From sequence record LC768462.1: a DNA stretch of 64,000 bases. The stretch is one strand, 5' to 3'. The translations under genes and the position numbers were made by a program. Origin of the DNA: Escherichia phage phiEc_1. The notes under the pieces are model-generated. The model was not told the DNA's origin. It was given only the letters and a program-made list of their open reading frames with translations, and did no database searches. Positions 31,881 through 49,647 of this stretch are shown here, piece by piece (the stretch's first letter is position 1; every line of letters begins with the position of its first letter).

Positions 31881-32062
31881 AGTGCTCTAAATGTGAAGGA
31901 ACAAACCTTCACTTAAGTAACAAGGTTATCAGAGAGCTTGCCAAAGGCTCTCCAACCAAAGGGAAGAACAAACGATTTACTAACGTCAGGGTTTATACAG
32001 CAATCTGTAAAGACTGCTTAACTACTGAATGTCATTACGAAGAAATTGGAGAGCGTAAATGA
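31865..32062 (+). CDS. small zinc-ribbon protein
   Basis: CSKCEG...CKDC. Confidence 0.5.
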   Translation: MDIVVKCSKCEGTNLHLSNKVIRELAKGSPTKGKNKRFTNVRVYTAICKDCLTTECHYEEIGERK

Positions 32063-32796
32063 GTCGTCGTCAATCACGGAAAGAATCACGGAAAGACCTT
32101 CGTCGAGAAGCACTTGTTACTCGTAAGGGTAAGCGAGAGTATGAAGAGGTGGTTTTAGCAAAGCCTGTAGTCCCTCAGAACCAGTTTCAGTCTGAGCTAC
32201 TTAATGCTATCAAGACTAAACAAGTTGTGTTCACAGACGCTCCTGCGGGCTGTGGTAAGACCTTTGTAATCACTTCCACGGTTATTGATGCACTGAAGAG
32301 TGGTAAGATTCAGAAGATCATCTTGAGTCGACCTTCAGTTGGCATGGGTAACTCTCTTGGGTTACTTCCGGGAGGGATGCGTGAGAAGTTTGAACCGTAC
32401 CTTATGCCTATTATTGATGTTATTACTCAGCGATATGGTAAGGGGTTCTATGAATGCCAAATCGGAAATGGTAATATTGAATTTGTACCTCTGGAATATC
32501 TCCGTGGTCGTTCCTTCAATGATGCCATTGTTATCGTGGATGAGTTCCAGAACACCACTAAAGAGGAAGCCTTCTCCATCATGACTCGATTGGGAGAAAC
32601 CTCTCAGCTGTTCTGCATGGGTGATACAAACCAGCATGATATGCGTGGTCGTGAGAGTGGCCTCACTTGGGCTACTAACTTTATTGATGAACACGATCTG
32701 TATGAGTTTGCTGAGATTGTAGACGGTGAATCGGATGATATTGTTCGTTCTGGTTTCTGTAAGGCGATTGTTAAAGCAATGGAAAAGAAAGCTTAA
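32059..32796 (+). CDS. phoH: PhoH-like ATPase
   Basis: Walker A APAGCGKTF, ILSRPSVGMGNSLGLLPGG, VIVDEFQNTT, GDTNQHDM match PhoH. Confidence 0.9.
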   Translation: MSRRQSRKESRKDLRREALVTRKGKREYEEVVLAKPVVPQNQFQSELLNAIKTKQVVFTDAPAGCGKTFVITSTVIDALKSGKIQKIILSRPSVGMGNSLGLLPGGMREKFEPYLMPIIDVITQRYGKGFYECQIGNGNIEFVPLEYLRGRSFNDAIVIVDEFQNTTKEEAFSIMTRLGETSQLFCMGDTNQHDMRGRESGLTWATNFIDEHDLYEFAEIVDGESDDIVRSGFCKAIVKAMEKKA

Positions 32797-32807
32797 ACAG
32801 TAACTTA

Positions 32808-32816
32808 TAATGTATA
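32808..32816 (+). promoter_or_regulatory. candidate phage-sigma promoter element (TAATGTATA)
   Basis: Exact 9-mer 37 bp upstream of ATG 32853. Confidence 0.45.
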
Positions 32817-32852
32817 CTCCTTAGTGTACACTGATATATTAAGGAGTTCTAA

Positions 32853-33170
32853 ATGGCAGACCATGTAGGAAAGAGAGATTATGCACAAGAAAGACGTACC
32901 GCAATTGCCCGTGGTGAGACAGGCGTTGGGAGCAAGAGCGGAGATGCTCAGCGCCACCGTGCACGTCGCATCGTTGAAAAGCGCGATGGAAAAGCTGCTG
33001 TCAGAGGTAAAGATGTTGGACACAAACGAGCTGTCAAGTCTGGAGGCTCTAATGCGTCAAGCAACTTACGTGTTGAACCAGTCAGCTCAAACCGTTCAAA
33101 CGGCGGCAAAAGTGGTGATCGCGCTGGAAAAGCAGCTGGAGCACGCAAAGGAGCTTTAAGCTCATCGTAA
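32853..33170 (+). CDS. basic low-complexity protein
   Basis: AAGGAG 8 nt upstream of ATG. Confidence 0.5.
   Translation: MADHVGKRDYAQERRTAIARGETGVGSKSGDAQRHRARRIVEKRDGKAAVRGKDVGHKRAVKSGGSNASSNLRVEPVSSNRSNGGKSGDRAGKAAGARKGALSSS
32881..33159 (+). CDS. alternative-frame helical protein embedded in 32853..33170
   Basis: 92-codon open frame with amphipathic-helix-like composition; weaker SD. Confidence 0.3.
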   Translation: MHKKDVPQLPVVRQALGARAEMLSATVHVASLKSAMEKLLSEVKMLDTNELSSLEALMRQATYVLNQSAQTVQTAAKVVIALEKQLEHAKEL

Positions 33171-33174
33171 TATG

Positions 33175-33205
33175 AGGCTGCCCACTTGGGTGGCCTTTTC
33201 TTTTA
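33175..33205 (+). terminator. rho-independent terminator
   Basis: GGCTGCCCA / TGGGTGGCC stem then TTTTCTTTTAT. Confidence 0.6.
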
Positions 33206-33238
33206 TATAAACCAAACTAAACTTCCTAGGTAATAAAT

Positions 33239-33493
33239 ATGTCTATTGTAAAAATCGTAAATATCATTGATGTAACTCGTACCGGTAAAACTATCAGTTG
33301 GAAATTCACCAATAAGCATAGAGGTTCAGAGAACATCATTCGTTCTATGATTCAACAAAACCCAAATACAGCTCGCACTAACGTACTCCTTCGCGGAGCT
33401 GATGGAAAATTTATCTCTTATAAGAATAAGAACGTAGAAAAATCTTTCCGTGTTGCAGTAGAAAATCTCATCCCATTCACTAAAGGAGTTTAA
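33239..33493 (+). CDS. small protein, paralog family C
   Basis: ORF track; shares ART.V.LR...GKFISY...PF.KG with next ORF. Confidence 0.55.
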   Translation: MSIVKIVNIIDVTRTGKTISWKFTNKHRGSENIIRSMIQQNPNTARTNVLLRGADGKFISYKNKNVEKSFRVAVENLIPFTKGV

Positions 33494-33494
33494 T

Positions 33495-33779
33495 ATGAAT
33501 AAGTTAGCTATGGTACAGATTCGAGATACATACCCCAACCGCCCGGAGCAGAAACCTCGTACTTGGTCCTATCTGCTAGTAGGGAGTAAGACTATTAATT
33601 CATGCTCTGTAGGAATTGATACTATCCCAACCAGTATCACTTTGCTTCCTCACAAAACAGCCAGAACCCATGTGATGTTACGTGACAGCAAAGGTAAGTT
33701 TATCTCTTATCGTGATTCACGAATTAATAACGAGATTAAATCTGCTATGGAATTTTTGATGCCATTCCCAAAAGGTTAA
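33495..33779 (+). CDS. small protein, paralog family C
   Basis: ORF track. Confidence 0.55.
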   Translation: MNKLAMVQIRDTYPNRPEQKPRTWSYLLVGSKTINSCSVGIDTIPTSITLLPHKTARTHVMLRDSKGKFISYRDSRINNEIKSAMEFLMPFPKG

Positions 33780-38980: not shown

Positions 38981-39458
38981 AGAACCTGTAGTACATAAAG
39001 ACTCTATCAGAGATCAATATAATGAGATGTTAAAGAAACAAGCTGATTCTAATCTTCGTTATCAGAGGATAGTAGAACAATCTAACTTTAAAGGTTTACT
39101 TGAATGGTAACTTATATTGTTTACTTCTTAGCTTTCTTAGGAATAATCTTTTTATCTATTCTTATTGAATTTGGTTTAAGTAAGTTAGTTAATTATTTAG
39201 GTAATAAGTAATTATTATTCTTTTAAATAGAGAATCAAAGTCCCTAGGAGTCCCTACAACCTAAATCAAGGATTCCTTAATTCTCTATTTTTATCTCGCA
39301 GGTGGCTCCTGCCCTTCGGTACTTGCAAGGGATTCTGTGAATTGCCCAATATACAAGCCTGCAATAACTTTATCAGCTATACAATATATACATTACTAGT
39401 GTGTTATATCTACTACCAAAGATACTTATATTATATAGTACTCTTATCGGTATAAGCG

Positions 39459-39467
39459 TAATGTATA
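39459..39467 (+). promoter_or_regulatory. candidate phage-sigma promoter element (TAATGTATA)
   Basis: Exact 9-mer 60 bp upstream of SSB start, inside an AT-rich intergenic region. Confidence 0.45.
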
Positions 39468-49638: not shown

Positions 49639-49647
49639 TATACATTA
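49639..49647 (-). promoter_or_regulatory. candidate phage-sigma promoter element (TAATGTATA on - strand)
   Basis: Reverse complement of TATACATTA, 39 bp upstream of the 49600 start. Confidence 0.45.

What the first reader, a model, noticed from the sequence alone, without database searches (positions are those of the whole stretch)
32853..33170. Two long overlapping reading frames in one locus (candidate dual-coding region)
Frame A (32853-33170) has a consensus SD and encodes a basic, disordered 105-aa protein. Frame B (32881-33159) is fully embedded and encodes a 92-aa protein with a clean amphipathic-helix heptad pattern. Two stop-free frames of about 300 nt over the same DNA are unlikely by chance. 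A TAATGTATA element lies 37 bp upstream and a terminator directly downstream, so this is a discrete transcription unit.
Basis: seen in the sequence. Interest (0 to 1): 0.5.

Follow-up and report, generated by a model that had tools for sequence, protein, structure and literature searches.

The report
Candidate overlapping gene inside phage HNH gene
A small, conserved nuclease-like gene of a phiEco32-type coliphage carries a second 92-codon reading frame inside it; related phages have kept that frame open far longer than chance allows, so it is a credible but unproven second gene on the same DNA.

Summary
The window is a Kuravirus (phiEco32-like) coliphage. Both ORFs exist exactly as described.

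Frame A (32853-33170) is a real gene. It belongs to a widespread small HNH-fold family (phrog_4590). Its 103/105-identical SU10 orthologue (gp56) was detected by mass spectrometry. It is basic but not simply disordered.

Frame A is poor in hydrophobic residues, so only about 2.3-2.8 +1 stops are expected. P(open) is 0.06-0.09, and 5 of 48 other genes in the window have +1 open runs of at least 90 codons. The helical look follows largely from codon usage.

Comparative data nevertheless favour selection on B within one clade (A identity about 62-100%):
- The same ATG and stop are kept in 12 of 14 lineages (neutral simulation: P(≥10 of 14 open) ≤0.003).
- An equally long +1 run in neighbouring PhoH is broken in every relative.
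- No stop-creating Val/Ile/Leu codons occur, despite heavy third-position (wobble) turnover.
- Wobble composition is atypical only where B is open.
- Synonymous divergence is about half that of flanking genes.

Against B: two in-clade losses, absence outside the clade, only a weak ribosome-binding site, non-conservative replacements, and no homologues.

Verdict: probably (about 0.55) a clade-restricted overprinted gene. Translation is untested.

The parts
32808..32816 (+). TAATGTATA, the consensus element of promoters read by the phage sigma factor (phi32 gp36-type middle/late promoter)
   Evidence: Exact match, 4 in the window against 0.73 expected. PMC8948821 gives the consensus tAATGTAtA with the start site 6-8 bp downstream. 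The upstream intergenic region is 87-91% conserved between genera.
32840..32846 (+). Shine-Dalgarno TAAGGAG for frame A, with a 6-nt spacer
   Evidence: Sequence. Duplex with the 16S 3' end is -8.7 kcal/mol. A strong SD is present in nearly all relatives.
32853..33170 (+). Frame A: 105-aa basic (pI 11.5) HNH-fold protein, phrog_4590. This is the established gene.
32881..33159 (+). Frame B: 92-codon ORF in the +1 frame of A, predicted as an alpha-helical hairpin (helices 9-44 and 51-91). Candidate overprinted gene.
   Evidence: ORF. The same ATG and a stop-free span occur in 31 of 33 distinct sequences with A identity of 0.68 or more. Neutral simulation gives P(≥10 of 14 open) ≤0.003. No homologue exists outside this locus. 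AF2 mean pLDDT 73.
32867..32870 (+). AGGA, a weak SD-like element 10 nt before B's ATG
   Evidence: Duplex -4.2 kcal/mol. That is within the top ~17% of internal out-of-frame ATGs but far weaker than A's SD. It is not conserved in sequence across lineages.
32931..33023 (+). Core (A residues 27-57, B residues about 17-48) with the strongest synonymous conservation
   Evidence: The codon difference at identical residues is 0.376 here, against 0.47-0.55 elsewhere in the gene. This applies only in lineages with B open. Lineages with B closed show 0.51 and Pseudomonas lineages 0.63. The core is 90-96% identical between genera.
33021..33092 (+). HNH-type motif of frame A: H57 ... GG ... N71-L72 ... 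N80. The usual Asp before His is Gly in this phage, and there are no Zn-binding cysteines.
   Evidence: Invariant columns in the 41-sequence alignment. The spacing matches the D-H-x6-GG-x5-N-L-x7-N pattern (read from the sequence; the pattern itself is from general knowledge of HNH motifs).
33174..33207 (+). Intrinsic-terminator-like hairpin (10 bp, 6 GC) followed by a T-run
   Evidence: Terminator scan. A terminator is annotated at the same place in phage SU7.

Best explanation
The locus is one middle-gene transcription unit: a gp36-type promoter, a strong SD, a terminator. Its established product is frame A, a small HNH-fold, strongly basic protein. That family is conserved next to the replication genes of phiEco32-, 7-11- and LUZ24-like phages.

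Superimposed on it, in the +1 frame, is frame B. This is most likely a young overprinted gene. It would have arisen in the common ancestor of the Gordonclarkvirinae and a few related enterobacterial phage lineages.

B's ATG is made from the conserved Tyr10 codon TAT plus the G of the next codon. Its stop is made from a Leu codon (TTA, CTA or CTG) plus a following A. The frame stays open because every Val, Ile or Leu codon of A that precedes a purine ends in T or C.

B would be translated at a low level from the same mRNA through a weak SD-like AGGA. It would give a 10-kDa helical-hairpin protein of unknown partner.

Shown here: both ORFs exist; A's fold, conservation and translation (in SU10); retention of the B ORF beyond neutral expectation; reduced synonymous divergence.

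Inferred: that B is translated, that it is functional, and what it does.
For: 1. ORF retention. ATG plus a stop-free span is present in 25 of 25 distinct sequences at 0.80 or higher A identity, and in 6 of 8 at 0.68-0.80. It is also present in L035 and L142 at about 0.65.
2. Turnover is not lacking. Third-position (wobble) differences at control four-fold sites reach 0.27-0.59 between these lineages. A neutral wobble simulation on their tree, started from an open ancestor, predicts 2-4 of 14 tips open. P(≥10 open) is 0.003 or less even with branch lengths halved.
3. Empirical control. The 85-codon +1 run in the adjacent PhoH gene is broken by 1-3 stops in relatives with 92-99% PhoH identity, and by 6-9 stops in L075 and L143. 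B is intact in all of these.
4. Parsimony counts. Pyrimidine-to-purine wobble changes number 50 at 27 control sites, against 0 stop-creating changes at the Val/Ile/Leu sites of open lineages. In these genes, GTA occurs only upstream of B's ATG (0-1 per gene) and GTG never, whereas flanking genes use GTA plus GTG at 0.31-0.54.
5. Wobble composition of A is poor in T and rich in A and C relative to flanking genes in all 11 open lineages. It matches the flanks in closed lineages.
6. The proportion of synonymous differences (pS) of A is the lowest of all local genes in open-lineage pairs. The non-synonymous proportion (pN) tracks PhoH and DNA polymerase, so A is not simply younger. A's saturation level is only about 10% lower.
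7. Among A-nonsynonymous first-position changes, those that also change B occur at 0.65 times the rate of those silent in B in open lineages. The ratio is 1.8 in closed lineages.
8. No conserved RNA structure accounts for the constraint.
Against: - The single-genome test is not significant (P = 0.06-0.09).
- Two lineages nested in the clade have lost B while keeping A: L074 with 4 stops and L141 with 2.
- B is absent or unrecognisable in all more distant homologues. L036 has no ATG and a hydrophobic product. Grimontviridae, Lahexavirus and Proteus phage homologues have 3-7 stops.
- B's first ~20 residues are unconserved and proline-rich.
- A-synonymous changes are no more conservative for B than random ones. 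Mean BLOSUM62 is -0.95 against a null of -1.03 ± 0.14 (P = 0.29 in independent pairs).
- The SD-like signal is weak and not conserved.
- B has no homologue anywhere outside this locus among 1.8 billion representatives.
- There is no proteomic evidence. The SU10 study searched annotated CDS only.
- Gordonclarkvirinae alleles are recombinant mosaics, so the 98 genomes are few independent lineages.
- Several tests were chosen after seeing the data.
Confidence: 0.55

Rival explanations
1. Only frame A is a gene. Frame B is an untranslated or functionless by-product. A's Gly/Ala/Arg/Lys/Ser-rich sequence offers few chances for +1 stops. The ancestor happened to have none. The apparent maintenance reflects unmodelled codon-context bias, recombinational homogenisation, or limited independence of the lineages.
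For: - Only 13 of 105 codons can seed a +1 stop. P(open) is 0.06-0.09.
- Within-gene codon permutation across 42 family members gives 110 observed against 105.7 expected +1 stops.
- Long +1 runs are common in this genome, in 5 of 48 genes.
- The helical composition is reproduced by permuted codons, and also in L074 where B is broken.
- Variable sites by B codon position 1/2/3 number 9/45/23, and the frame-B dN/dS is 1.2-2.
- The BLOSUM test is not significant.
- B is lost in L074 and L141 and absent in distant relatives.
- Alleles are mosaic.
Against: - It does not explain why Val, Ile and Leu codons never take a purine at the third (wobble) position before a purine, in 12 lineages whose other four-fold sites changed about 1.85 times per site.
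- It does not explain why the PhoH control ORF decays at once in the same genomes.
- It does not explain why wobble composition departs from the flanks only where B is open.
- It does not explain why pS is halved while pN tracks neighbouring genes.
- The genome at large does not avoid GTA or GTG before purines (0.41-0.45).
Confidence: 0.33
2. The synonymous constraint comes from another element overlapping the middle of gene A. Candidates are an RNA or DNA signal, a protein-binding site, or a recognition site for one of the homing endonucleases that insert next to this gene. On this reading B's openness is a side effect.
For: - The constraint is concentrated in about 90 nt (32931-33023) rather than spread over all of B.
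- HNH, Endonuclease VII and HNH_3 homing-type genes sit immediately beside A in several relatives.
- Alleles recombine within the gene.
Against: - There is no conserved secondary structure. The consensus energy is -1.3 kcal/mol with essentially no covariation, and the single-sequence fold has z = -1.7.
- A local element does not explain stop-specific avoidance at Val/Ile/Leu codons outside the core (residues 61, 74, 77).
- It does not explain the gene-wide shift in wobble composition.
- Antisense frames show no comparable stop depletion.
Confidence: 0.08
3. The +1 frame is read not from its own ATG but by ribosomes that shift from frame A. The product would be a fusion of A's N-terminus with B's C-terminal part. 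This would explain the weak SD and B's unconserved N-terminal stretch.
For: It rests only on indirect points. The SD is weak and not conserved. B residues 1-20 are variable. The +1 frame is also open in Pseudomonas phage homologues that lack the ATG.
Against: No slippery or shift-prone motif was looked for or noticed. B's ATG is kept in every in-clade lineage. A +1-frame stop (TAG, 32866-32868) lies just upstream of it. The SU10 mass of 10.8 kDa fits unshifted A.
Confidence: 0.04

Closest known systems
Embedded +1-frame phage genes made by overprinting: lambda Rz1 inside Rz, and phiX174 E inside D (from established knowledge, not tested here)
   Same: A complete small ORF, with its own start and stop, lies wholly inside a longer gene in the +1 frame on the same mRNA. 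The older gene is widely conserved and the inner one is restricted to a sub-lineage. Synonymous change in the outer gene is reduced.
   Different: Rz1 and E have demonstrated products and lysis functions, and recognisable signals (a lipoprotein signal sequence, a TM helix). Frame B has no demonstrated product, no signal peptide or TM segment, no known function, and lies in a replication-gene cluster.
Small phage HNH proteins (Geobacillus phage GVE2 HNH, PDB 5h0o; Gme HNH nicking endonuclease, 4h9d; EcoKMcrA nuclease domain, 6ghc). This comparison is for frame A.
   Different: There are no Zn-binding cysteine pairs. The Asp before the catalytic His is Gly in this phage. The window's protein does not reach any Pfam HNH threshold. 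It has a long conserved basic N-terminal helix region (RGETGxGSxSGDAxRHRARR). The gene lies among replication genes, not next to the terminase.
phrog_4590, the uncharacterised phage protein family that frame A belongs to
   Same: Full-length match, E = 1.9e-40.
   Different: The family has no assigned function. The overlapping ORF is not a family-wide feature.

Membership tests
Overlapping (overprinted, dual-coding) gene pair | A second ORF with its own start and stop in another frame of the same DNA | tested here: met
   ATG at 32881 and TAA at 33157-33159, in the +1 frame of A.
Overlapping (overprinted, dual-coding) gene pair | The ORF is longer than expected given the primary frame's protein and codon usage (single-genome permutation or synonymous-recoding test, in the style of PMC6188560) | tested here: not met
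   P = 0.06-0.09. Within-gene permutation gives 2 observed against 1.47 expected stops.
Overlapping (overprinted, dual-coding) gene pair | The ORF is retained across diverged relatives beyond neutral expectation | tested here: met
   12 of 14 clade lineages are open, against 2-4 expected, P(≥10 open) ≤0.003. The PhoH +1 control ORF is broken in 14 of 14 relatives checked. B is not retained outside the clade.
Overlapping (overprinted, dual-coding) gene pair | Reduced synonymous divergence of the primary gene over the overlap | tested here: met
   pS of A is 0.36-0.66, against 0.53-0.93 in flanking genes of the same pairs. pN is comparable. The effect is confined to lineages with B open.
Overlapping (overprinted, dual-coding) gene pair | Purifying selection on the second frame's amino-acid sequence | tested here: inconclusive
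   The NN/NS rate ratio is 0.65 in open lineages against 1.8 in closed ones, but it comes from pseudo-replicated pairs. The BLOSUM test has P = 0.29.
Overlapping (overprinted, dual-coding) gene pair | Translation of the second frame (peptides or ribosome footprints) | not testable with these tools
   The SU10 proteomics searched predicted CDS only and found frame A's orthologue gp56.
Overlapping (overprinted, dual-coding) gene pair | A ribosome-binding site for the second start | tested here: inconclusive
   AGGA with a 10-nt spacer gives -4.2 kcal/mol. A's SD gives -8.7 and the background median is -2.1.
HNH (beta-beta-alpha-Me) nuclease superfamily, for frame A | Beta-beta-alpha fold | tested here: met
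HNH (beta-beta-alpha-Me) nuclease superfamily, for frame A | Conserved His (general base) and Asn/Asn or Asn/His at canonical spacing | tested here: met
   H57, N71 and N80 are invariant in 41 homologues. G64 is invariant and G65 is conserved in at least 90%.
HNH (beta-beta-alpha-Me) nuclease superfamily, for frame A | Match to a curated HNH profile above threshold | tested here: not met
   The window's protein has no HNH hit at E ≤ 1. Relatives hit PF01844 and PF13392 only weakly, best E = 5e-4 and 7.5e-5. A PDB profile search found nothing.
HNH (beta-beta-alpha-Me) nuclease superfamily, for frame A | Zn-binding CxxC pairs (present in many but not all HNH proteins), and metal-dependent nuclease activity | tested here: not met
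   The protein has no cysteine. Activity is not testable here.
phi32 gp36-dependent promoter | A single element tAATGTAtA upstream of a middle or late gene | tested here: met
   Exact TAATGTATA at 32808-32816. The consensus is from PMC8948821 and PMC4281155. The start site was not mapped here.

The most novel reading that the evidence does not exclude
Frame B is a genuine de novo gene, born by overprinting inside a conserved HNH-fold gene in the ancestor of the Gordonclarkvirinae and allied enterobacterial phages. It would encode a 10-kDa helical-hairpin protein, would still be kept by selection in most descendants, and would already have been lost in two. A further, weaker possibility is that the same scaffold was overprinted independently in LUZ24-like Pseudomonas phages. 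There the +1 frame is also stop-free and would encode a hydrophobic, membrane-like peptide.
Probability: 0.5. Interest if true: 0.65.

Novelty: new member of a known kind. Interest (0 to 1): 0.55.

Why it matters
Overprinted genes are a main route by which viruses invent proteins. Few are documented in tailed phages beyond the classic lysis examples, and gene callers never report them.

This candidate has several useful properties:
- A datable birth within one clade.
- Two natural losses.
- A clean internal control, the PhoH +1 ORF.
- It sits in an experimentally tractable model (phiEco32/SU10).
- Single A-synonymous point mutations can switch it off.

If confirmed, it would add an unannotated protein to about 100 sequenced therapeutic-type coliphages. 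It would also give a compact system for studying how a new protein evolves under the constraint of an older, highly conserved one.

If refuted, it is a useful warning. ORF retention, halved synonymous divergence and skewed wobble usage would then have arisen without a second product.

Tried and rejected
- **Pfam and PHROG scans of B.** Only sub-threshold noise: tropomyosin at E = 0.005, which is compositional.
- **Exhaustive protein searches with B.** Only same-locus ORFs called by gene finders (P0121, P0123, P0124), plus a spurious 2817-aa repeat translation, P0122.
- **RNA-structure explanation for the synonymous constraint.** RNAalifold found no consensus structure. The single-sequence fold has z = -1.7.
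- **'A was recently transferred, so it is simply younger'.** Rejected because A's non-synonymous divergence tracks PhoH and DNA polymerase pair by pair.
- **'The constraint is a family-wide property of A (translational accuracy at invariant residues)'.** Rejected because the core shows no wobble conservation in Grimontviridae or Pseudomonas homologues.
- **Genome-wide avoidance of off-frame stops or TpA.** Rejected. GTA plus GTG before purines is 0.41-0.45 in the window's genes, and +1 stops run at 5.2 per 100 codons.
- **Antisense ORFs (32948-33148 and 32805-33023, minus strand).** No clade-specific stop depletion comparable to the +1 frame.
- **Heptad or helix content as evidence.** Rejected as largely compositional.
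- **tblastn of B against 98 phage genomes.** It gives full-length single-piece matches. This cannot prove the absence of stops, so I relied on the 33 in-clade sequences actually fetched.
- **The metagenome scan.** It added few in-clade lineages.

Full report
**What the window is.** The 600 bases around the finding match 98 phage genomes at 80-99% identity. All are phiEco32-like coliphages (Kuravirus and related Gordonclarkvirinae). The finding lies between a PhoH-like ATPase gene (32059-32796) and, further downstream, the DNA polymerase gene (from 34373).

**Checking the observation.**
- ORF A (32853-33170, 105 aa) and ORF B (32881-33159, 92 aa, +1 frame, fully embedded) are exactly as described.
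- TAAGGAG sits 6 nt before A's ATG.
- TAATGTATA is at 32808-32816. Published work on phiEco32, 7-11 and SU10 gives tAATGTAtA as the sole recognition element of promoters read by the phage sigma factor gp36, with start sites 6-8 bp downstream (PMC8948821 and PMC4281155).
- A terminator-like hairpin with a T-run follows at 33174-33197.
- The 'discrete transcription unit' reading is therefore reasonable.

**Frame A is a real, conserved gene and is not just 'disordered'.**
- It matches phrog_4590 at E = 1.9e-40 and has at least 199 homologous clusters.
- tblastn finds it in 250 phage genomes: coliphages, Pseudomonas LUZ24-like phages, Aeromonas, Cronobacter, Salmonella 7-11-like, Proteus and Vibrio phages. 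It usually lies among replication genes.
- In a 41-sequence alignment, 26 positions are invariant. These include His57, Asn71 and Asn80, in the spacing typical of HNH nucleases.
- Of the relatives, 27 of 41 give weak Pfam HNH hits. The window's own copy gives none; it has Gly instead of Asp before the His.
- In phage SU10 the orthologue gp56 is 103/105 identical with a calculated mass of 10,827 Da. It was detected by mass spectrometry with two peptides and 18.3% coverage, which equals 19 of 104 residues.
- Substitutions among relatives fall at A's codon positions 1/2/3 as 23/9/45, with dN/dS 0.13-0.18.

- A +1 stop needs T at position 2 of an A codon. A has only 13 such codons out of 105.
- Recoding A's protein with the phage's own codon usage gives on average 2.6-2.8 +1 stops, against 2 observed. 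B's span is stop-free in 6-9% of recodings. This holds with plain usage and with usage conditioned on the next base.
- Five of 48 other long genes in the window have +1 open runs of 90-140 codons.
- B's richness in helix-forming residues is 0.62. Permuting A's own synonymous codons reproduces it (0.60 ± 0.02). It is also seen in L074, where B is broken.
- Only the helical hydrophobic moment is mildly high (P about 0.04-0.05).
- AlphaFold predicts two long helices at pLDDT 73, but that is expected for such a composition.
- On this evidence alone the finding would be ordinary.

**Comparative evidence changes the picture.** I collected frame A homologues with their DNA from GenBank phages, IMG/VR, metagenomes and Logan/ENA contigs.
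- In an NJ tree of A proteins, one clade holds four groups: the Gordonclarkvirinae; L071, L072, L073, L075, L143, L074 and L141; L076, L034 and L035; and L078, L142 and L093.
- Within this clade B keeps the same ATG and a stop-free span:
  - 25 of 25 distinct sequences at A identity 0.80 or higher;
  - 6 of 8 at 0.68-0.80;
  - also L035 and L142 at about 0.65.
- L078 is counted among the 12 open lineages although its frame ends a few codons early, at one stop near the end of the B span.
- B's ATG is built from Tyr10 TAT plus the G of codon 11. In most lineages its stop comes from a Leu codon followed by A.
- The clade is not short of wobble turnover. Control four-fold sites differ at 0.27-0.59 between lineages, and codons for identical residues differ at 0.37-0.61.

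**Six tests address phylogenetic inertia.**
1. *Neutral simulation.* Wobble evolution was simulated on the clade tree, starting from an open ancestor and using context-dependent codon usage. It predicts 2-4 open tips of 14. P(≥10 open) is 0.003 or less even with branch lengths halved. Expected total stops are 17-23, against 7 observed, and 6 of the 7 are in L074 and L141.
2. *Parsimony.* At 27 pyrimidine-majority control sites there are 50 pyrimidine-to-purine changes in the open lineages. At the Val/Ile/Leu sites there are no stop-creating changes. In these genes GTA appears only upstream of B's ATG (0-1 per gene) and GTG never, while flanking genes use GTA plus GTG at 0.31-0.54.
3. *Empirical control.* The neighbouring PhoH gene has an 85-codon +1 run in the window. 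It is interrupted in all 14 relatives checked, including those with 96-99% PhoH identity, and carries 6-9 stops in L075 and L143. B is intact in all of these.
4. *Wobble composition.* A's third positions are about A 0.36, C 0.23, G 0.09, T 0.32. Relative to each genome's flanking genes they are poor in T and rich in A and C, in all 11 open lineages. In L074, L141 and the outgroups they match the flanks.
5. *Synonymous divergence.* A has the lowest pS of all local genes in every open-lineage pair: 0.36-0.66, against 0.53-0.93. Its non-synonymous divergence tracks PhoH and DNA polymerase, so A is not merely a recent arrival. A's intrinsic saturation level is only about 10% lower. The excess conservation is strongest over A residues 27-57. 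It is absent from the same region in Grimontviridae and Pseudomonas homologues. No conserved RNA structure explains it.
6. *Selection on B's sequence.* Among A-nonsynonymous first-position changes, those that also change B occur at 0.65 times the rate of those silent in B in open lineages. The ratio is 1.8 in closed lineages. These counts are pseudo-replicated and were not tested for significance.

**Evidence against B.**
- Two lineages nested in the clade have lost it while keeping a conserved A (L074, L141).
- Outside the clade it does not exist as such:
  - L036 and L037 (A identity about 0.67-0.74) lack the ATG and would encode an unrelated hydrophobic peptide.
  - Aeromonas, Cronobacter, Salmonella and Proteus phage homologues carry 3-7 stops.
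- B's first ~20 residues are unconserved and proline-rich.
- B identity is 68-72% where A's is 88-93%.
- A-synonymous changes are no more conservative for B than random ones in independent pairs (P = 0.29).
- The SD-like AGGA is weak (-4.2 against -8.7 kcal/mol for A) and not conserved.
- B has no homologue outside this locus among 1.8 billion representative proteins or 5.8 billion clusters.
- Gordonclarkvirinae alleles are obvious mosaics of a few segment variants, so those ~98 genomes count as few lineages.
- Several of my tests were devised after looking at the alignments, so nominal P values are optimistic.

**Weighing.** The ORF-retention result, the PhoH control and the stop-specific codon avoidance are hard to explain without selection on the +1 frame. 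The weak start signal, radical replacements and repeated loss fit a young, weakly constrained, dispensable protein, but they fit a non-functional ORF equally well.

| Explanation | Confidence |
|---|---|
| B is a selected, translated, overprinted gene in this clade | about 0.55 |
| B is a by-product, with unmodelled biases | about 0.33 |
| Another overlapping element imposes the constraint | about 0.08 |
| The +1 frame is read through a frameshift, giving a fusion | about 0.04 |

**Comparison with known systems.**
- In architecture the candidate resembles the classic embedded +1 genes of phages, lambda Rz1 in Rz and phiX174 E in D. That comparison rests on general knowledge and was not tested here. 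Unlike those, B has no demonstrated product or function.
- Frame A is a divergent, cysteine-less member of the HNH fold class. It is filed under phrog_4590 with no known function.

**Verdict.** This is a good, cheap target for proteomic re-analysis and two point mutations.

Noticed in passing
L002, L003, L013, L044, L046-L048, L051, L052, L056, L058, L060 (Pseudomonas LUZ24-like and related phage homologues of frame A): The +1 frame is also stop-free over the B-equivalent span in most of these phages. It lacks the ATG at the B position and would encode a hydrophobic, TM-like peptide (for example LKMAVVTGILISASVVILLTLLMVVVWAIV). Observed +1 stops are 7 against 12.3 expected in four loci with good flank data, which is not significant. 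This could be a separate overlapping ORF or a by-product of GGT-rich codons.
   Followed up: partly
window 32339-32584 (+), inside PhoH: An 81-aa ORF (85-codon open run) lies in the +1 frame of PhoH. It is broken by 1-9 stops in every relative examined, so it is a chance ORF. It served as the control for frame B.
   Followed up: yes
window 33171-33238, and the same junction in relatives (L011 1821-2315, L151 434-558, L147 1-136, L071 1841-2248, L074 1830-2321): Free-standing HNH, Endonuclease VII or HNH_3 homing-type genes are inserted immediately downstream or upstream of frame A in several relatives, but not in the window. The gene borders look like a hotspot for mobile endonuclease insertion.
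   Followed up: no
window 33239-33493 and 33495-33779 (+): Two adjacent small genes (84 and 94 aa) both match phrog_6814 (E about 1e-37). They are a tandem paralogue pair of unknown function. Some GenBank records label the first 'autotransporter adhesin', which looks like a mis-annotation.
   Followed up: no
L145-L151, L086-L090 compared with window 32853-33170: Frame A alleles in Gordonclarkvirinae are mosaics. N-terminal (MADHVGK or MTDKAK), middle and C-terminal variants occur in different combinations. This indicates recombination within this 318-bp gene, around an almost invariant core.
   Followed up: partly
window 39387-39395 (-), 39459-39467 (+), 49639-49647 (-): Three further exact TAATGTATA elements. 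These are presumably the other gp36-dependent middle or late promoters, two of them divergent and only about 70 bp apart.
   Followed up: no
window 32853-33170, frame +2: Frame A uses far fewer T-ending codons than the rest of the genome (T3 0.31 against 0.45 expected; GGA 8 of 16 Gly, CGC 5 of 15 Arg, AGC 5 of 13 Ser). The +2 frame therefore has 6 stops against 13.7 expected (P = 0.003), although it is clearly not coding.
   Followed up: partly
window 33015-33023 (frame A residues 55-57): In Gordonclarkvirinae the HNH 'D-H' dyad reads G-H (VGH), whereas nearly all other family members have VDH. Whether the protein is still a nuclease in these phages is open.
   Followed up: no
P0122 (hit of the representative search with B): A 2817-aa 'protein' made of tandem repeats scored E = 9e-30 against B through four repeated stretches. 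It looks like a translated repeat array, not a homologue. It is a caution for automated readings of that search.
   Followed up: yes
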